DNA of 63,883 bases, filler included, from Reclinomonas americana ATCC 50394 (Eukaryota): NCBI GenBank assembly GCA_048213135.1. It is 5 parts of 2 records of this genome, joined end to end, with 100 filler letters (N's around TTAATTAATTAA, not from the genome) between each part and the next. Parts side by side here need not be neighbours in the genome. Positions count along the whole stretch, not along the records: positions 60,294 to 63,883 come from PS015093.1; 4 more parts are not named here. One strand, 5' to 3'. The notes below the pieces were generated by a model. The model was not told the DNA's origin. It made no database searches and saw nothing but the letters and a program-made list of their open reading frames with translations. The stretch's first letter is position 1, and the number at the start of each line of letters is the position of its first letter. A program made the position numbers and the translations under genes. Of the stretch, positions 37,016-63,016 are shown piece after piece.

Positions 37016-37920
37016 TCACCGTGCAAAGTTGGAGCACGCCGACGACAGGAACTCTGCGGCGAGGGAACGATCAGCACACGCACTTGGTTTATCCTTGCAT
37101 CAACACAACGTACCACGCCACGTGATCTTCGAGTCGCCGTCCTTGTCGACGAAGCCCATGAACGCCTGATACTCGGCATCGGCGATCGGTCGCCGCTCAA
37201 ACTCCTCCATGATCTGGCGCACCTCGCTGCCGGAGATCGTCCCGTTGCCGTCGCGATCGTACTTGTTGAACACTTGACGAATGGCCGCAGCATCGGCAAG
37301 GACTGCGTACAGAGAGAGACAGATGAGTGCGATGCATTGGTGGCCAAAGGATGCTGAACGCAACAGGCCACAGAGAACAACTTGTCGAATCCTGTACGCA
37401 GTGGTGAGCGTGTGTGTGCGGGGGAGGAGGCGTATAACGAAGCTCACTGACCAGCGAGGAACTCATGGAAGTTGCTGCGTTATCATACCACCACAGAGCA
37501 CAGTGAGTGAGCGCGAGTGAGAGACAACAGAGCACGTTCGTTCGCAACACTGTGTACAGTCATGATGATGAGCACAGTGTTCTGAGAGGAGACAAACAGC
37601 GTTTTCTTATGTAACTGTCATTGCTTCCGTCGACATCGACGGCCTCCATCAGTGCAGCGACTTGATCGGCGGAGAGGGTGACACCGAACTCGACGAGGAA
37701 GCTGTCAGAGAGACAAGAGTGAGTGACAGAGAGTAATGAGAGTGTGAGAGAGAGAGGAGAACCTTTGCAGTTCATCGCGAGAGAGCTTCCCGTCGCCGTT
37801 CGAGTCAAAGGCAGCGTATACCTGAGAGAGAGAAGATGAGTGAGTGAGTGAGAGATAACGCTCTTGTCTTTCTCTCTCTTGCTCTCTCAAAGGCCTGTGC
37901 ACAGACAAAGACATCTGTTG

Positions 37921-38700: not shown

Positions 38701-38780
38701 TTGTGAAACTTGTCCTGCGCGCAAGTTCGTGACTTTAAGCTTCCCTCTTCAGCATATCACCGCAGTCTGCTGTGTATTCA

Positions 38781-39480
38781 GTGCTCATGTCGCTGCTGGA
38801 GAAGGATCAGCGCGAGGAACACTGTGTGCGCAAAGTTAGCTCGAAATTTGTGTGTGAAGTTGATCAAAAGGCGTCTCCTCGATGTAAAGCGCGAAAGAGA
38901 AGCTGTGGTGTACATTGTAGAGACGACGAGACTTGCGTGCACGTGCTCAAACCGCTGCTGGAGATGGAGCAGCATGAGCGACAACCTGCGAAGTTGTGGA
39001 CGTGAAGTTGACCGTAATTCCTCTCCTCACCGCAGAGGGAGACAGAGAAGCTGTGGGAATCACTGTGGCAGGCAGCAAGGCTAGCGTACGTGTGCTGAAG
39101 TCGCTGCTGGACGAGCATCTGCAGGAGGAAAAGTGTGCGAAGTCGTCCACATGTGTGAAGTTGATCGTAATTCCCCTCCGCATCCAATAGGCAGTAGACA
39201 AGCTGTGATATGCATTGTGCCAGCATCAAGGCAAGCGTACATCTGCTAAAGTCCCTGCTGGACGAGCATCTGCAGGAGATAAAGTGTGCGAAGTTGTTTC
39301 CGGATCCGGATCCACGTGTGAAGTTGATCGTAATTCCCCTCCGTATCACAGTGGACAGCCTACAAGCTGTAGTGTGCATTGAAGTAGCAATGAGGCATAT
39401 GCACACATGCTCAAGTCGCTACTGGGCATGGAACAGCACGAGAAACAATTTGCGAAGTTGTCTCCATGTGTGAAGTCGAC
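38781..39480. repeat. Degenerate intergenic tandem repeat, 5 units of about 149-164 bp
   Basis: Unit start TGCT(C/G/A)AAGTCGCTGCTGGA-like at 38781, 38943, 39092, 39243 and 39407, each followed by GCGAAGTTGT...GTGAAGTTGA(T/C)C. Confidence 0.85.
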
Positions 39481-39607
39481 CTTGCGCAGCGTTTTCCTCA
39501 ACACGCTGAGCAATACAAAAGCTCCCTTTCCAACATACACACTGCAGCAGCCACCAGATCCGACGCAGGACAGCTCCATTCTCTTTTTTTATTCTGTTTC
39601 GCGCGCA

Positions 39608-41657
39608 ATGGCACTCGTGTTTCGTTGGGAGTTCTCTCCGCAGTCTGTGGAGAACATTCGACTCAAGCTGGAGAGTCGACTGAATGCCGAGGATAACGCA
39701 CTGGCCACGGATGTGCTGGGCGCAGTCAGCATTCTCAAGTTGGAGCCCGGGAGCACGGTGAGTGAGAGAGAGAGAGAGAGAGAGGAGGAGAGAGAGAAGA
39801 AGAGAGAGAGAGAGAGAGGAGGAGGGAGGAGGAGAGNNNNNNNNNNNNNNNNNNNNNNNNNNNNNNNNNNNNNNNNNNNNNNNNNNNNNNNNNNNNNNNN
39901 NNNNNNNNNNNNNNNNNNNNNNNNNNNNNNNNNNNNNNNNNNNNNNNNNNNNNNNNNNNNNNNNNNNNNNNNNNNNNNNNNNNNNNNNNNNNNNNNNNNN
40001 NNNNNNNNNNNNNNNNNNNNNNNNNNNNNNNNNNNNNNNNNNNNNNNNNNNNNNNNNNNNNNNNNNNNNNNNNNNNNNNNNNNNNNNNNNNNNNNNNNNN
40101 NNNNNNNNNNNNNNNNNNNNNNNNNNNNNNNNNNNNNNNNNNNNNNNNNNNNNNNNNNNNNNNNNNNNNNNNNNNNNNNNNNNNNNNNNNNNNNNNNNNN
40201 NNNNNNNNNNNNNNNNNNNNNNNNNNNNNNNNNNNNNNNNNNNNNNNNNNNNNNNNNNNNNNNNNNNNNNNNNNNNNNNNNNNNNNNNNNNNNNNNNNNN
40301 NNNNNNNNGAGAGAGAGAGAGAGAGAGGGAGAGGGGGGAAGGAGAGTAAATGCATCTCTCCTCCTCTTCTCTGTTCTTCTTCTTCGTCTTCTCCTGCTTC
40401 TTCTTGTTCTTCTTGTTCTCTGTGTTCTTCTTCTTGTTTCTTCTCCCTCTTCTTCTTCTCCTGCTCTATCTTCTTCTTCCTCTCCTTCTCCTTCTCTATC
40501 TTCTTCCTTCTTGTCATTCTTATCCTTTTCTTGTTCCTCTTCTCCGTGTTCTTGTTGTTGCTGTTGTTGCTGTTCTCCTTCCTCTTCTTCGTCTTCTCCT
40601 CCTCCTCCGTGTTATTCTTGTTCTTCTTCTTCTTTATTCTTCTTCTTCTCCCGCTTCTTCTTCTTCTCCTCCTCTATCTTCTTTCTTATCCTTATCTGCG
40701 TCTTCGTCTTGTTGCTGCTGCTGTTGTTGTCTTCTTCCTCTTCTTGTTCTTCGTCAGCATCAAAATCATCATCTTCTTCTTCGTCGTCTCCTTCTCCTCG
40801 TTATCCTCCTTCCCATCCCCCTCCCCCTCTCCCTTTCCCTTCACTGATCTGCGCCTTCTTTCTTCGCACGCAGCCTCCCCTGGTGCATATCAGCGGGGCC
40901 GACGGAAACGCGGATCACGTTCTCAAGGTGTATCGCTTCGCGTATCGCGGAGATGCGCTGCTGTCACTGCGCGCCAATGTCATGGTCTATTGCACTTGGC
41001 TTCCACTGTGCTCTCATCGTGTGCGTGCTCATTCTGCTCTGCCAGGTCAACTTTATTCGCCCGTCGCTCTCGCGCGCGCAGGGCATGGTGCTCTCGCACG
41101 CAGGTGCTGCGTTTTGTGGGCGACCGCTTGTGTTGCCGTTGACGCTGACGGTTTCCAATGTTCGCATCAAGGGTGGGAGTTCTTTCGTTCAATCTCCCCA
41201 GCTGGGCAAAGTGGGCTCACGTGTCTGCGTTTACAGGGTCAATTTCGGTGGCGTTCAAGCAAAAGGGATTGTTCTCGTTGCCGGCAGAAGGCGACGACAC
41301 CGTGGACGATCAGACCATGGATGACGGTGAGTTGTCTTGTGTGCATGCGTTGTTTGCTGTTGCTCATCGTGTTGTGCTGCAGATGACATGAGTGCTGTTC
41401 TGGGTGAAGCGAGGTGTGTGGCTTACTGCGCATGTCACCCATTGCTCCTCTCTCTTCGTGTTTCCATTCTTCATTTGTTTTTTCTCTCGCATTCCAATAT
41501 AATCTTGTCTCGTCTTTCATCACTTCTTCTCTTTTCCTCCACTGCTTCCGTCTTCTCACCTCTCCCGACACACTGCAACTGTCTCTGCCTTGTTTCTGTT
41601 GTTCACTCTCTTCATTCTCTCCTCACTTTCCTCCACCCATTTTCTCTGACTCCCTTC

Positions 41658-42445: not shown

Positions 42446-45523
<3,078 letters not shown>

Positions 45524-58630: not shown

Positions 58631-60669
58631 ACAGTGTTCAAGCCAATGAACTTGCTGACTGCGGCGTCTGTGCACAGGTGTATCGCCGGTGACGAGAAGC
58701 AACCTTGCAAAGGTTAGAACCTGCGCGCGTCCCTTGTGTGTGGTGCTGTGATATGTGTGCTGACATCACTGCCTGATAAACGCAGCCGGGTTGACGCGGC
58801 AGCTGCTGCATGTTCAGCTGTCCCTATGCCGGGTTTCTGCTGGCAGCAGTGGATGTAGTTACACTGCCAACATTCTGTCTTCCTCTCTCCCGCTGCATTT
58901 GTGTTTTTACTCTCAGAATCACGAGCTGGGCGAGGGAACCTACTTCTCCAGTTCGTGTGCCACGCGTACGCTATCCACGCACCGGCAAGGCATGTGGCCT
59001 GCTGGGGCAGATCAACCTCACGGGGGGACCTGCTCGTCGGCGCTGTCGACGTCGCAGGGTCAGGCGGTGGTGGTGATCGACAAGGTGAGGAGTATTGAGA
59101 CAGAGCCTGCCAGCGAGGAAACACTGGAGGAGGAGGAGAGCTAGGTATAGCAGCGTGTGGCTGCGCGCTGTCGCGCGCGTGTGCGTGTGCATCTGCTGCT
59201 TGTTCGTGTTGTATCAGCAGTCATTGAAGCGCTTTCTGTATGCTGTACGCGTATCCGGGTGGGTGATATGGGCTCTGCACTGGGTTGTGAGGCAGTAGTG
59301 GTGGGCGCTGCTGCTGTGGGCAGCCAAGCGCAGTCGCGGCGCGGCGCGGCGCACCTGGGCAAGTTATGGTAATCTCTGTGGAAATCAACTGGTCGAGGCC
59401 GTAGCTCACCGTAATCCTGACCACAAACTGGCCAGAGTCAGACCAGTGCGAAGATATGGCTGTTCTCTGGTAACTACCATTGGCTTTCCATTGATTTACC
59501 ATACGCTGACCATTCGCTCCACCCTCCGCAGACCATAGTTTGCCTGTATTTTTACCTTCCGCAAGTCCGGAAAGTCGGTGTGGTAAGCACCATAGGTATG
59601 GAAATCACGCTGTGGACACCTATGGACACGTCCACAAGTATGGAATTTACCATACTTTCCATACTTTCTGATCCACAAGATGTTGGTAACTCCACTGAGG
59701 TCAAACAATGGACTTTTCCAGGAAGGGAGTGGAAAAATGATGGCAATTCCATGGAATTACCACACTGCGAACTATGGACGAAACGGGACATGCTGTCAGG
59801 GTATTACGTCGGCCAGGGTGCCGAGCGAGTGGAGATCACGGAGAGCTCCAAGCTGTTCAAGACGATCAAAAAGAACAACCAACAGAAGATCAAGGACAGC
59901 TGGAAGAAGCAGAAGTACACGGGTCACTGCCTCGACGTGTCTGGAGAGGAGAAGGCCAGTGGTTACTTCTTCAAGCGCGCGACTGGAGTGTCTGCAAAGG
60001 CGCTCAAGACGGCCATCCTGGTGCGCACCGACACACTGCCGACTGCCGCCAGAGTGCACGCGTACAGGCCTGCGGTCTCCAAGTACTGCCGACTGTGTGG
60101 TCTTCAACAGTCGGAGACGCCCATGCACGTCCTCAACAGCTGTCCAGCTCACGAGTGCGGATTGACGGTCAATGGTAATGAGATGCCGGCCGANNNNNNN
60201 NNNNNNNNNNNNNNNNNNNNNNNNNNNNNNNNNNNNNTTAATTAATTAANNNNNNNNNNNNNNNNNNNNNNNNNNNNNNNNNNNNNNNNNNNNAAAGTAC
60301 CTACGCCTCGCTCAAGCCGTTCAGGAGCGTACTGGCAAGCGAGTGGTGTTCGTACCGTTGGTCTTTGGCACTGGTGGCATTGTGTCGACACTGACGGCCA
60401 ATGGTCTGGCCGATTTGGTGCACAAGCATTCTGCCAGCCAGCGACGCAGTGACGATGAGACTGAGCGCCTGCTGCGCAGGTGCTGTGCGTCTGTCGCCCG
60501 ACATGATCATGTCATTTGGGCGGCACACGTGGCTGCCAGTATTCGCGTCACCTCTGCACGGCAGTAACTGCTGACACGTACTGGCTCTGCTTTCACGCAA
60601 CCAGCATGTCTTGCACGTTCTTCCCCTCCACCGCCATCACTGTACATAACGACGACGACAACAACAACA
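54377..60669 (+). mobile_element. 5'-truncated RLE-type (R2/NeSL/R4-like) non-LTR retrotransposon, interrupted by a DNA transposon and a gap
   Basis: 59802-60193 encodes W..Q..TG, ILVRTDTLPT and the zinc knuckle CRLCG...ETPMHVLNSC. 60294-60567 encodes the RLE end KYLRLA...FVPLVFGTGG. 54377-54448 is in frame with 59802 once the insert is removed. A (GAC/AAC)n tail lies at about 60648-60669. Confidence 0.85.
54462..59801. mobile_element. 5,340-bp TIR DNA transposon, probably CMC/EnSpm-like, with decayed internal genes
   Basis: Perfect 26-bp TIRs CCCTGACAGCATGTCCCGTTTCGTCC at 54462-54487 and its reverse complement at 59776-59801. TA on both sides. Dense TGG(T/A)(A/C)A-type subterminal repeats in both orientations over about 350-450 bp at each end. 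The superfamily call is inferred from the ends only. Confidence 0.9.
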
Positions 60670-61523
60670 TTGTGTCTGTGGTCAACGTCGTCTTCAACCC
60701 TCAGTCCTCTGGTTTTCTCACTGTGCGGCCACCGGTCAGTGGCTGTCACAGTGGTTGAAATCACTGATGCGACAACAATGACAACAACAACAACAACAAC
60801 AACAACTGCGCCCACCACCAGCNNNNNNNNNNNNNNNNNNNNTTGTTGTCCTTGACAGCGGGGGGATCGCACTGCCAACACGGAGCATCCAGCGCGACTG
60901 CCACCACCGATCTACTTGTTCCACTTGCCGCAGCTCGCGTTCCACGTCGCTGCATACATGCATGCGATGTGAGGGCGACAGAGCTCGAGGTGATCATGAT
61001 CATGAGGTTTCTCGTGTCAATTGCAATACATACCTCATGATCACAGTCCGCTGCAGAGCCACTCGCAGCACGTGCGCAGTGACGAGCGCCGTGGTCAGTG
61101 CCGCGTCAGTGGGAGGCGCAGTGACGGTGGTCGGTGTGGGAAGACGCGCGAGTGCCTCTTGCAGCAGGTTGCGCATGCGAATTCGAAGTCGCTCTGCTTG
61201 CAGTGCGCATGCTGTGTTGTTGTTGGGGGCGATTGCAGGAGTGGTGAGCGATGAAGATGAGTTGCAGGAAGCGGCGGAACGCGTCACCCATGCCACACGA
61301 TCTGCCACATCGACGCGGCGACACGAACGAGAGGAGGCATCGACGTTCGCGTATCTGCGCCGTTGTCTCACAGTGCTCTCTTCTCTCGTGCACACGCGAC
61401 ATATAAGCACTCGAGTCTCTCGTGATGCTGTGAGCGGAAGTGTGGCGTGAGCTTGTACCAACTTCCGCTGTCATTTCCGGCAAAGTCCGGCCAATCTTGT
61501 CCTCAACAAACTCACGCGATGCG

Positions 61524-63016
61524 ATGACGAACGGACCAGAGTACGACTTGTTGCGTTCGCCGTGTCGCTTTCACACGTGACTGCGCTGACTCATTCCCTT
61601 GACAGCATTCCTGACCGCGAAGGCTTGTCCACTCATGCCTTTTTCACACGCCACGAATGTTGCTGACCGTCTCGCCCGCAGTGACGGAGACTCTGCTGTT
61701 CTCAGAGGAAGACTCTCGCCAGCCTCCTGGTCTGCGCATGGTGTACACTGCTGGTGCGTGTACCTCGTCGTGTGCGACTCTTCGCATGATCTGTTGATCA
61801 TGACAGTGGCCACTTGCGCATGCGCAGCGAATGCATGTGTTGTGAGGTGGAAGATTGATGGCTTTTGGCAAGACACAGAGCCTCCCGTGTCGCCCATTAT
61901 TGAGTGCGCAGGCTGCAAGTGGTGCTTGGCAACCTCGATCGAAACCATATGATGCTGCGCCCTCTCACTCCGCTGCCCTCCCTCCGTGCAGGCGCCTTCT
62001 CGCGTTCCCTCACGGCTGGGAGACCAGCGGCTGTTTATCTCTCTTTCTCGAATCATACGACATGGCGGACTTGGCTGCGAGAATGTCAAATTGGGGGACG
62101 CGCGTGGTAAATCTGTTCGTCAATAATGCTGCGCATGCGGCCTACGTTTTTCCACCTGACGTTCGATGAACTAAAACTCTATGTGCGTACGCGTGGCCGA
62201 CTGCCTGCAGCAAACGCGTCTTTCTTCCCGCAACTCCCAATGCAGAGTTTGCTGTGGCTGTTGTCAGTCAGCTTCCTGGACTGGGACGTCGACATCCGTC
62301 AAAATTTGCAAGTTGTGTTGACTCTATCAGCTTGGTGCGTGCTGTGCCTGCGTGGTTCTCACTCGTATCGAAAAGTATCGAAAAAGCGGTTCCATGTCAA
62401 TTTGGATGACTGGTGCTCGGGAGTGCAACAGTTGATGTCACACGAAGATTTGCAACGCGATGGCTTGTTGCGTCGCGTGGAGTCGAAACACGTCGCGTCA
62501 TCTCGATGCTGACAGTGCTGCTGGTGATGGCAGTGTTGTCGACGACACGGTGGTGGTGGAATTGCAGCTCTTTGCCTGGCAATGGAAGGATACATACCAC
62601 TATCCTGATGCTCCGGATTCTGGTACGTGGTCAACAATGTCTGCGCTATCGATATCGTCCCTGGTCCTCATGTTGACGGTTATCTTTTCTCCGCCAGGAT
62701 TTCTGGGGCCAGCACCGGTGGGTCACACCTAAGCACCATCCTCTCTCCCGGTCATGCACGGACAAATGCTCACAAAGTGTGCTTGTACTGGCAGACCGAG
62801 GATGATGGCTACATGCTTGACAATCTGGACCACCTCATGGAAGTGCGTCGTGCGTTGGCCGCTCCACAGCATGCGGCACAAATGGAGCTCGAGGCCGCCC
62901 GACGTGCATCGGAGGCCGTTCTGGCACTCGATGACTCAGACTGGTGCCTCGTAGATGTGGTGATGCGGTGCTGCATGGTTTGCGAGGCAGAGATAGTCTT
63001 GTTCCGCTTGTCTTGA
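61524..63016 (+). CDS. MATH/TRAF-domain protein with a C-terminal helical box shared with the WD40 gene
   Basis: Spliced MATH motifs VVRWKIDGF...SPIIECAGCKW-RLLAFPHG...CLSLFLE, FAVAVVSQ, KRFHVNLDDWCSG..LMSHEDL..DGF-VVDDTVVVEL, with stop TGA 63014-63016. Confidence 0.82.

What the first reader, a model, noticed from the sequence alone, without database searches (positions are those of the whole stretch)
62864..63016. Unnamed C-terminal 'box' shared by a MATH protein and a WD40 protein: candidate lineage-specific ubiquitin-ligase adaptor family
SEEN: two otherwise unrelated genes about 46 kb apart end in the same motif. WD40 (17166-17002, -): PCGLAQQELHAARSAMLAV-linker-CLPEMVLRCFIVEEAEVVVHR. 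MATH (62864-63007, +): PQHAAQMELEAARRASEAV-linker-CLVDVVMRCCMVCEAEIVLFR. I count 11/19 and 11/21 identities in two ungapped blocks, each within a few residues of the stop. KNOWN: WD40 and MATH are classic substrate-binding domains of cullin-RING adaptors. SOCS/VHL boxes and poxviral PRANC F-boxes are C-terminal helical modules of about 40-50 aa, and LPEMVLRCFI resembles the F-box LP.E.L..I pattern. INFERENCE: a modular system of variable recognition domain plus constant terminal box that recruits Skp1/Elongin-cullin. Two copies in 64 kb hint at a large expanded family, possibly for intracellular defence.
Basis: partly seen in the sequence, partly recalled or inferred. Interest (0 to 1): 0.82.

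Follow-up and report, generated by a model that had tools for sequence, protein, structure and literature searches.

The report
Shared C-terminal helical tail in jakobid proteins
Two unrelated genes in this protist scaffold, a WD40 propeller and a MATH-like protein, really do end in the same 60-residue helical tail, but it matches no known ubiquitin-ligase box and only two further copies turned up in public data.

Summary
The two tails share 11/19 and 11/21 residues. They are the best non-local protein match in the window (34.7 bits).

An exhaustive profile search of 1.84 billion proteins found two more real copies. One is a Reclinomonas americana EST protein; the other is a 394-aa WD40 protein from an unnamed assembly. 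In 4 of 4 members the box sits at the very C-terminus.

The box is therefore a real, uncatalogued module of jakobid-like eukaryotes. It lies behind three WD40 propellers and one MATH-like domain.

- No member matches the Pfam F-box, SOCS-box or PRANC models.
- The isolated box is predicted as a two-helix hairpin (pLDDT 77), with only generic structural matches.
- Partner binding could not be tested.
- Nothing indicates a large family or a defence role.
- No tool confirms the "MATH" label. It rests on motifs that appear after removing short GT-AG introns.
- The WD40 copy carries an in-frame TGA.

Best reading: a docking or assembly handle, with a cullin-RING adaptor the leading but unproven partner. 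Interest is moderate to low.

The parts
62864..63016 (+). C-terminal box of the MATH-like gene: helix-1 block, short linker, helix-2 block, then LS and the TGA stop
   Evidence: It matches the P0002 box independently (23/62 identities, E 6e-7).
16972..17166 (-). C-terminal box of the WD40 gene, starting right after the seventh WD repeat (..RVWSTP..) and ending SFADPEMHL plus TGA
   Evidence: The box is 82% identical to the box of P0001; the overall alignment with P0001 is 75% identical over 115 aa.
16972..18066 (-). WD40 gene: ATG at 18066, seven 42-residue WD repeats, then the box. An in-frame TGA lies at 17650-17652, where four sister repeats have Arg, one Lys and one Val (CGA in two of them).
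   Evidence: Pfam WD40 E 1.4e-44 and 9.7e-38 for the two ORF halves. Translation and DNA.
61800..63016 (+). Proposed MATH-like gene, 256-308 aa depending on intron 2. Exons: 61800-61921, 61992-62145 (or -62160), 62246 (or 62387)-62466, 62534-62626, 62698-63016.
   Evidence: In-frame GT-AG combinations were enumerated and joined in a script. Each model gives one open frame from ATG to TGA. There is no RNA evidence. The MATH-like motifs were judged by eye against a recalled consensus, and Pfam gives no MATH hit.
61922..61991 (+). Proposed intron 1 (70 nt, GTGCTT..GTGCAG). Its removal creates ..CAGCKW|RLLAFPHGWETSGCLSLFLE.., the most MATH-like stretch.
62467..62533 (+). Proposed intron 3 (67 nt, GTTGCGTC..GGCAG). 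Its removal gives ..LQRDG|FVVDDTVVVELQLF..
   Evidence: The same donor octamer, GTTGCGTC, starts a 63-nt insert (31977-32039) between the Pre-PUA and PUA matches of another gene in the window.
62627..62697 (+). Proposed intron 4 (71 nt, GTGGTC..pyrimidine tract..CGCCAG). It joins the MATH-like part in frame to the last exon, which carries the box.

Best explanation
The box is a real, previously uncatalogued module of about 60 residues at the C-terminus. It consists of a Pro-capped helix with an Ala/Leu stripe, a variable acidic or polar linker, and a second, very hydrophobic helix carrying an invariant V-x-R-C.

It occurs in eukaryotes of the jakobid (Reclinomonas) lineage, behind at least three different WD40 propellers and one MATH-like domain.

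I read it as a docking handle. It would attach different target-recognition domains to one common partner, most plausibly an adaptor or scaffold of a cullin-RING ubiquitin ligase. That would be analogous to WD40+SOCS-box or MATH+BTB proteins without being homologous to them.

Shown: homology, C-terminal position, two kinds of upstream domain, helical propensity, and absence from known family libraries.

Inferred: that it binds a common partner, and that this partner belongs to the ubiquitin system.
For: Homology beyond chance is shown.

Two independent further members came from a profile search of 1,835,955,588 proteins: P0001 (E 7.7e-27) and P0002 (E 6.4e-7). Both carry the box at the very end. 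P0001 is a transcribed R. americana sequence.

The box is better kept than the domain it follows. Between P0002 and the window's WD40 protein the box is 44% identical, while the three propeller segments that BLASTP reports apart from the box are 25-28% identical.

Fifteen columns are invariant in 4 sequences. In helix 1 they are spaced 3-4 apart: A8, E11, L12, A15, A18, A21, V22. Only 9 of 22 shared residues keep the same codon, which fits long-term selection on the protein.

The isolated box is predicted as two long helices, 4-28 and 35-61, at pLDDT 77.

Passages of a review state that WD40 and MATH-type receptors dock to cullin adaptors through short 'box' domains: F-box, VHL/SOCS-box and H-box (PMC4403949).

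A USP-type deubiquitinase gene fragment lies directly upstream of the WD40 gene. This is only weak context.
Against: There is no sequence kinship to any known adaptor box. No member (0 of 4) matches F-box, F-box-like, SOCS_box or PRANC in Pfam at E<=10. The PDB profile search gave only 9 chance hits, all light-harvesting proteins, with best E 0.25.

Fold searches return only generic helical hairpins. Foldseek gave 0 hits at E<=1e-3. The best VIA Z was 8.8, below the noise level the tool states for helical models.

In the full-length P0002 model the box region has pLDDT of only 34-55, so the hairpin fold is not secure.

WD40 and MATH domains also work outside ubiquitin ligases. No partner was tested.

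The family looks small. In addition, the window's WD40 copy has an in-frame stop, and the MATH-like gene needs four unverified introns.
Confidence: 0.38

Rival explanations
1. The box is a self-association module. The helical hairpin would pair with a second copy to form a four-helix bundle or coiled coil, producing homo-oligomers or mixed oligomers of the WD40 and MATH-like proteins. Coronins carry a C-terminal coiled coil behind their propeller, and TRAF proteins carry one beside the MATH domain (both comparisons recalled).
For: Two long helices are predicted, and the invariant small or hydrophobic residues in helix 1 are spaced like a heptad repeat. Helix 2 is more hydrophobic than a lone hairpin needs (sequence). 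The structural neighbours include designed and natural helical-bundle oligomers such as ROP and DHD designs, but only at generic scores.
Against: Generic coiled coils do not usually keep 37-45% identity and invariant P, D, R-C and R positions across otherwise unrelated proteins. That pattern suits recognition of a specific surface, although mixed assembly among family members could also explain it. No tool result supports self-binding.
Confidence: 0.3
2. The box is a true but very diverged member of the F-box/PRANC or SOCS/VHL-box families. It would bind Skp1 or Elongin C.
For: L-P-E-hydrophobic-hydrophobic-x-x-x-hydrophobic in the two WD40 copies resembles the start of an F-box, and h-x-x-x-C resembles a BC box (both consensus patterns recalled). 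The C-terminal position matches SOCS and PRANC boxes. The domain pairings are analogous: WD40+SOCS in WSB proteins (title and abstract of PMC12816127).
Against: No member (0 of 4) hits any of these Pfam models at E<=10. L-P is present in only 2 of 4 members. The BC-box Leu position holds M, V, M and V, and no LPxP Cul-box follows (consensus recalled). Only 23-29 residues follow the L-P/L-V position, and two helices, not three, are predicted.
Confidence: 0.08
3. The box is a regulatory or targeting tail. It might be a localisation signal, an autoinhibitory lid, or a docking site for a non-ligase partner such as the neighbouring USP-type deubiquitinase.
For: Terminal position and short length. 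USP/UCH fragments lie next to the WD40 gene at 18334-19666 on the - strand. MATH and WD40 domains both partner with USP enzymes in other eukaryotes (recalled: the MATH domain of USP7, and WDR48 with USP1/12/46).
Against: Gene adjacency in one 64-kb window is weak evidence. Nothing in the sequence resembles a known targeting signal (no Pfam hit). The full-length model does not dock the tail confidently on the propeller (pLDDT 34-55).
Confidence: 0.15
4. There is no current function. The similarity would be a relic shared by decaying gene copies or an assembly artefact.
For: The window's WD40 copy has an in-frame TGA. The MATH-like gene is not open in one frame. The scaffold has 27 runs of N.
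Against: A 75%-identical copy is transcribed and open to the stop in R. americana. P0002 is an intact 394-aa protein. Protein identity exceeds what the diverged codons would give by drift. All four frame changes in the MATH-like gene can be bridged by short GT-AG introns, including a donor octamer (GTTGCGTC) that recurs in another gene.
Confidence: 0.07

Closest known systems
WSB1/WSB2 (WD40 repeat plus C-terminal SOCS box; CRL5 receptors)
   Same: A WD40 propeller is followed directly by a short helical module at the extreme C-terminus. This is the nearest analogue in architecture (WSB2 described as a Cul5 substrate receptor in the abstract of PMC12816127).
   Different: No SOCS_box Pfam match in any of the 4 members. 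There is no BC-box Leu and no LPxP Cul box (consensus recalled). Two long helices are predicted, not three short ones.
SPOP-type MATH-BTB proteins (CRL3 receptors)
   Same: A MATH-type recognition domain is followed by a C-terminal module that would link it to a scaffold.
   Different: A BTB domain has about 100 or more residues and its own fold, whereas this tail has about 60 residues and no BTB match. The MATH identity of the window gene is itself unconfirmed.
F-box and the poxviral C-terminal truncated F-box (PRANC)
   Same: Terminal position (PRANC), short length, and an L-P followed by a hydrophobic helix in 2 of 4 members.
   Different: No Pfam F-box, F-box-like or PRANC hit. L-P is replaced by L-V in the other 2 members. 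A conserved first helix precedes the L-P block, which an F-box does not have (recalled).
H-box / helix-loop-helix of DCAF receptors (DDB1 docking)
   Same: A short helical element attached to WD40 receptors docks them to an adaptor (passages of PMC4403949). A helix-linker-helix shape is predicted here.
   Different: The DCAF element is N-terminal to the propeller and shorter (recalled). None of the seven repeats ends in the WDxR motif typical of DCAFs (sequence; motif recalled). Membership could not be tested because no model was available.
Coronin C-terminal coiled coil and TRAF coiled coil
   Same: A propeller or a MATH domain is combined with a short helical oligomerisation segment.
   Different: Those segments are ordinary coiled coils without a conserved signature shared between the WD40 and MATH families. 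Here 15 columns are invariant across both architectures.

Membership tests
F-box (PF00646 / PF12937) and PRANC (PF09372) | Sequence match to the family profile | tested here: not met
   hmmscan of all 4 box sequences against Pfam-A at E<=10 gave 0 of 4 with any F-box, F-box-like or PRANC hit. The only rows were LCE6A (E 0.061) and CATIP_N (E 0.11) for one member. HMMER filters drop most matches above E about 0.1.
F-box (PF00646 / PF12937) and PRANC (PF09372) | Conserved L-P at the start of helix 1 and about 40 residues forming three helices (recalled definition) | tested here: inconclusive
   L-P is present in 2 of 4 members and L-V in the other 2. Only 23-29 residues follow it. AlphaFold2 on a 4-sequence alignment gives two long helices, but confidence drops to pLDDT 34-55 in the full-length context.
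F-box (PF00646 / PF12937) and PRANC (PF09372) | Binds Skp1 | not testable with these tools
SOCS box / VHL box (PF07525) | Sequence match to the family profile | tested here: not met
   0 of 4 members matched.
SOCS box / VHL box (PF07525) | BC box (S/T/P)-L-x-x-x-C-x-x-x-hydrophobic, followed by a Cul box with LPxP (recalled consensus) | tested here: not met
   The Cys is present in 4 of 4, but the Leu position holds M, V, M and V, and the preceding residue is E, D, E and D. No LPxP follows in any of the 4.
SOCS box / VHL box (PF07525) | Binds Elongin B/C and Cul2/5 | not testable with these tools
   No partner sequences were available.
DCAF H-box | Short helical motif that docks into DDB1; often WDxR in the repeats (passages of PMC4403949; WDxR recalled) | not testable with these tools
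   There is no family model and no DDB1 sequence. By eye, none of the 7 WD repeats ends in WDxR.
MATH/TRAF domain (PF00917), for the + strand gene | Sequence match to the family profile | tested here: not met
   No MATH hit for any single-frame ORF piece of 60845-63013 or for the proposed exons taken one by one. phmmer against PDB sequences gave 0 hits at E<=10 for two pieces. The spliced protein could not be submitted to any library.
MATH/TRAF domain (PF00917), for the + strand gene | Ordered core motifs of the beta-sandwich: h-x-W-x-I..F, G-x-x-W-x-L-x-x-x-P-x-G, LSLaL, D-W-G/C.., DD-x-h-x-h-E (recalled consensus) | tested here: inconclusive
   After removing the proposed introns the order is VVRWKIDGF, CKW|RLLAFPHG, CLSLFLE, DDWCSG, VVDDTVVVELQL. 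This was judged by eye only.
WD40 repeat propeller (PF00400), for the - strand gene | Sequence match to the family profile; seven repeats | tested here: met
   E 1.4e-44 and 9.7e-38. Seven 42-residue repeats are seen in the translation.

The most novel reading that the evidence does not exclude
The tail is a new class of receptor 'box', independent of F-box, SOCS/VHL-box, BTB and H-box. Jakobid flagellates would use it to plug WD40 and MATH substrate receptors into a cullin-RING ligase. It could equally be a shared assembly platform that mixes the two receptor types.
Probability: 0.2. Interest if true: 0.6.

Novelty: new variant of a known kind. Interest (0 to 1): 0.35.

Why it matters
Short terminal 'boxes' are how eukaryotes connect interchangeable target-recognition domains to ubiquitin-ligase scaffolds. 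All the well-known classes were defined in animals, fungi, plants and their viruses.

Jakobids are a deep-branching and poorly studied lineage. A box of their own, shared by propeller and MATH-type receptors, would show that such modular adaptors arose more than once. It would also provide a handle for finding the partner scaffold in these organisms.

As it stands the family is tiny (four known members) and its function is untested. The present value is a clean, searchable domain definition, not a discovery about mechanism.

Tried and rejected
- Whole-genome search: no genome is held for this window, so the family could not be counted in its own genome.
- Word-indexed protein searches. The box region at near lengths gave 3 candidates and none at E<=10. 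The 4-box profile against longer proteins returned only P0002 among 8000 scored. The whole WD40 ORF gave 1174 hits at E<=1e-10, of which 120 were listed; 0 of those 120 carry the box when scanned locally with the A3 profile (best 4.2 bits).
- P0003, the third hit of the exhaustive search, is rejected. It is a 1745-aa repeat protein whose score is the sum of many weak matches (each 2.6 bits or less) to an Ala/Ser-rich repeat.
- Metagenome scan: the one locus found, L001, is rejected. It matches only the fished nonamer CLPDVVLRC (12.7 bits), has no helix 1, is not at an ORF end, and has GC 44%.
- Viral contigs and prokaryote genome contigs: no relative.
- ESM Atlas: no usable hit for the box or for an ORF piece of the MATH-like gene.
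- PDB by sequence: only chance hits of helix 1 to the E-L-x-x-G-R-x-A motif of light-harvesting proteins, best E 0.25.
- Complex prediction with two copies of the box: no verdict.
- Sequencing runs: none was listed and no RNA holder was listed, so splicing and the TGA could not be checked against reads.
- Earlier findings of this scan: nothing to show.
- Reading TGA as a sense codon was considered and rejected. Both genes also end at TGA, and the internal TGA replaces CGA of sister repeats.
- Treating the frame changes in the MATH-like gene as sequencing frameshifts was considered. It was set aside once short GT-AG introns were found for all four, but it is not excluded.
- Literature. Three full-text searches listed nothing on this motif or on jakobid ubiquitin adaptors. 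In one search, none of the 10 listed papers contained 'Reclinomonas'.

Full report
WHAT THE WINDOW IS

The 63,883-base window is a gap-rich scaffold with 27 runs of N. It comes from an intron-bearing eukaryote: Pfam domains are split over neighbouring ORFs, for example Pre-PUA/PUA, ABC1 and UCH. No whole genome is held for it.

[quoted passage not shown] The window is therefore from that organism or a relative.

THE OBSERVATION

- The two ungapped blocks share 11/19 and 11/21 residues.
- None of 200,000 composition-preserving shuffles reached 22/40 (maximum 16).
- Only 9 of the 22 shared residues use the same codon, and nucleotide identity is 69/120. This is protein-level conservation, not a recent DNA copy (DNA alignment).
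- BLASTP gives 23/60 identities, 32.3 bits, E 3e-8 for the pair.

The pair (34.7 bits, E 7e-5) is the best match between distant places. Every stronger pair is between neighbours (WD40 repeats and three local repeats), and the next distant pair scores 29.3 bits. A profile of the two found no third copy in the window; the next best score was 8.0 bits.

The MATH-like copy ends 2 residues after the second block. The WD40 copy ends 9 residues after it.

THE TWO GENES

The - strand gene (18066-16972) encodes seven regular 42-residue WD repeats (Pfam WD40 E 1.4e-44 and 9.7e-38). The box follows immediately. The gene has an in-frame TGA at 17650-17652. At that position four sister repeats have Arg, one Lys and one Val, and two of them use CGA. 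This is a nonsense change or a sequence error, not a recoded codon, because both genes also terminate at TGA.

The + strand gene is not open in one frame. Pfam finds no MATH domain in any frame piece or proposed exon. phmmer against PDB sequences finds nothing, and the Atlas gives no usable hit.

All four frame changes can, however, be bridged by short GT-AG introns. Joining the exons in a script gives a single open frame from an ATG at 61800 to the TGA at 63016, 256-308 aa long depending on the second intron.

Two observations support these introns:
- Three of them are 67-71 nt long, and in the two models with the shorter second intron all four end in CAG.
- The donor octamer of intron 3 (GTTGCGTC) also begins a 63-nt pyrimidine-rich insert lying exactly between the Pre-PUA and PUA matches of another gene in the window.

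After splicing, the order of motifs is VVRWKIDGF, CKW|RLLAFPHG, CLSLFLE, DDWCSG, VVDDTVVVELQL. This is the order I recall for the MATH/TRAF sandwich. That is a resemblance judged by eye against a recalled consensus, not a test. I put MATH identity at roughly two in three. No RNA data could be found.

IS THE BOX A FAMILY?

An exhaustive HMMER search with the two-sequence profile against 1,835,955,588 representative proteins gave three hits at E<=1e-3:
- P0001: 116 aa, E 7.7e-27. It is the R. americana EST protein, consisting of a WD repeat plus the box at its end.
- P0002: 394 aa, E 6.4e-7. It comes from an unnamed assembly and is an atypical WD40 propeller with the box at residues 328-391 of 394.
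- P0003: a 1745-aa repeat protein. I reject it because its score is a sum of many matches of 2.6 bits or less to an Ala/Ser repeat.

P0002 also matches the MATH-like gene's box on its own (23/62 identities, E 6e-7, box only). Between P0002 and the window's WD40 protein, the three propeller segments that BLASTP reports apart from the box are 25-28% identical, while the box is 44% identical.

The four boxes align with 15 invariant columns: P4, A8, E11, L12, A15, A18, A21, V22, D35, L39, V43, R45, C46, A52 and R58. In 4 of 4 the box is at the extreme C-terminus.

Further searches added nothing:
- Word-indexed searches.
- The 120 listed WD40 hits, of which 0 carry the box.
- Viral and prokaryotic contigs.
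- One metagenome locus that matches only the fished nonamer.

The accession number of P0001 implies that the EST-derived set holds at least about 5,800 proteins, of which one carries the box. That fits a small family, not a large expansion (inference). Clustering at 50% identity could hide close paralogues.

WHAT KIND OF MODULE IS IT?

No Pfam family matches any of the 4 boxes at E<=10. In particular there is no F-box, F-box-like, SOCS_box or PRANC hit. A profile search of PDB sequences gave 9 rows, all light-harvesting proteins, with best E 0.25.

AlphaFold2 on the 4-sequence alignment predicts two long helices (residues 4-28 and 35-61) at mean pLDDT 77 and pTM 0.58. Foldseek against the PDB gave 0 matches at E<=1e-3. 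VIA-align against 48,161 chains gave a best Z of 8.8, and the listed rows were generic hairpins such as ABC-transporter helices, F-BAR and ROP. That is below the level the tool itself calls unspecific for helical models.

In a full-length model of P0002 the propeller is confident (mostly pLDDT above 90), but the tail is not (pLDDT 34-55; helices 332-344 and 381-393). The hairpin is therefore a reasonable but unsecured prediction, and the tail is not confidently docked onto the propeller.

The invariant small and hydrophobic residues of helix 1 are spaced 3-4 apart, as in a packed helix pair. Helix 2 is unusually hydrophobic (..MVLRCFIV....VVV..). This suggests a second surface for a partner or for another copy (inference).

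COMPARISON WITH KNOWN BOXES

Review passages state that cullin-RING receptors dock through F-box, VHL/SOCS-box or H-box elements (PMC4403949). SOCS boxes sit at the C-terminus behind repeat domains and carry BC-box and Cullin-box motifs (figure legends of PMC3779351).

The architecture here is analogous to WD40+SOCS (WSB) and MATH+BTB (SPOP). Membership fails where it could be tested:
- There are no profile matches.
- L-P is present in only 2 of 4.
- The BC-box Leu is M, V, M and V, and no LPxP follows (consensus recalled).
- Two helices are predicted where these boxes have three.

Binding to Skp1, Elongin C or DDB1 could not be tested, because no partner sequence was available.

VERDICT

The modular 'recognition domain plus constant tail' idea is supported for two domain types, with the caveat that one of the two domain labels is unverified.

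The ubiquitin-adaptor function is a reasonable analogy without direct evidence. Kinship to F-box or SOCS is unlikely. A large family and a defence role are unsupported.

My best reading is a docking handle for a common partner, most plausibly in a cullin-RING ligase (0.38). Self- or mixed assembly is a close rival (0.30). Three full-text literature searches listed nothing on this motif.

Noticed in passing
window 17650-17652 (- strand): In-frame TGA inside the fourth WD repeat unit. At the same position four sister repeats have Arg, one Lys and one Val (CGA in two of them). It could be pseudogenisation, a strain polymorphism or an assembly error.
   Followed up: partly
window 18334-19666 (-) and 19979-20392 (+): Fragments of a USP/UCH deubiquitinase lie directly upstream of the WD40 gene: a His-box region on the - strand (E 2.6e-4, below the Pfam cut-off) and a Cys-box region on the + strand beyond a 20-N gap (E 2.2e-7). 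The strand switch across the gap suggests a misoriented contig in the scaffold.
   Followed up: no
window 31977-32039 and 32242-32296 (+): Short inserts (63 and 55 nt) in the MCTS1-like Pre-PUA/PUA gene start with GTTGCGT and end in CAG. A much longer intron (about 0.95 kb, GTGTGT.. donor, microsatellite-rich) precedes them. The organism seems to use GT(G/T) donors that differ from the usual GTAAGT.
   Followed up: partly
window 15362-16465 (-): ORF pieces match the 'Predicted AAA-ATPase' family PF09820 (E 9.2e-12 and 3.5e-4) just downstream of the WD40 gene. The family is mostly prokaryotic, with scattered eukaryotic members (recalled).
   Followed up: no
window 59421-60191 (+): Weak match to zf-RVT (E 1.6e-4, below cut-off), possibly a retroelement relic about 1.6 kb upstream of the MATH-like gene.
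   Followed up: no
window 38707-39693 (+) and 22848-23570: Local tandem protein-level repeats (up to 49.7 bits between neighbouring ORF pieces) appeared in the all-against-all comparison.
   Followed up: no
whole window: Dinucleotide microsatellites (CA, GA and TC runs, read as THTH.., SLSL.., RERE..) are very abundant between and within genes. GC swings from 33% to 62% in 2-kb steps.
   Followed up: no
window 35911-36852 (+), 37103-37462 (-), 43904-44512 (-): Other recognisable gene pieces: SH3 (E 4.9e-6), an EF-hand pair (E 2e-10) and an ABC1 atypical kinase (E 1.3e-19).
   Followed up: no
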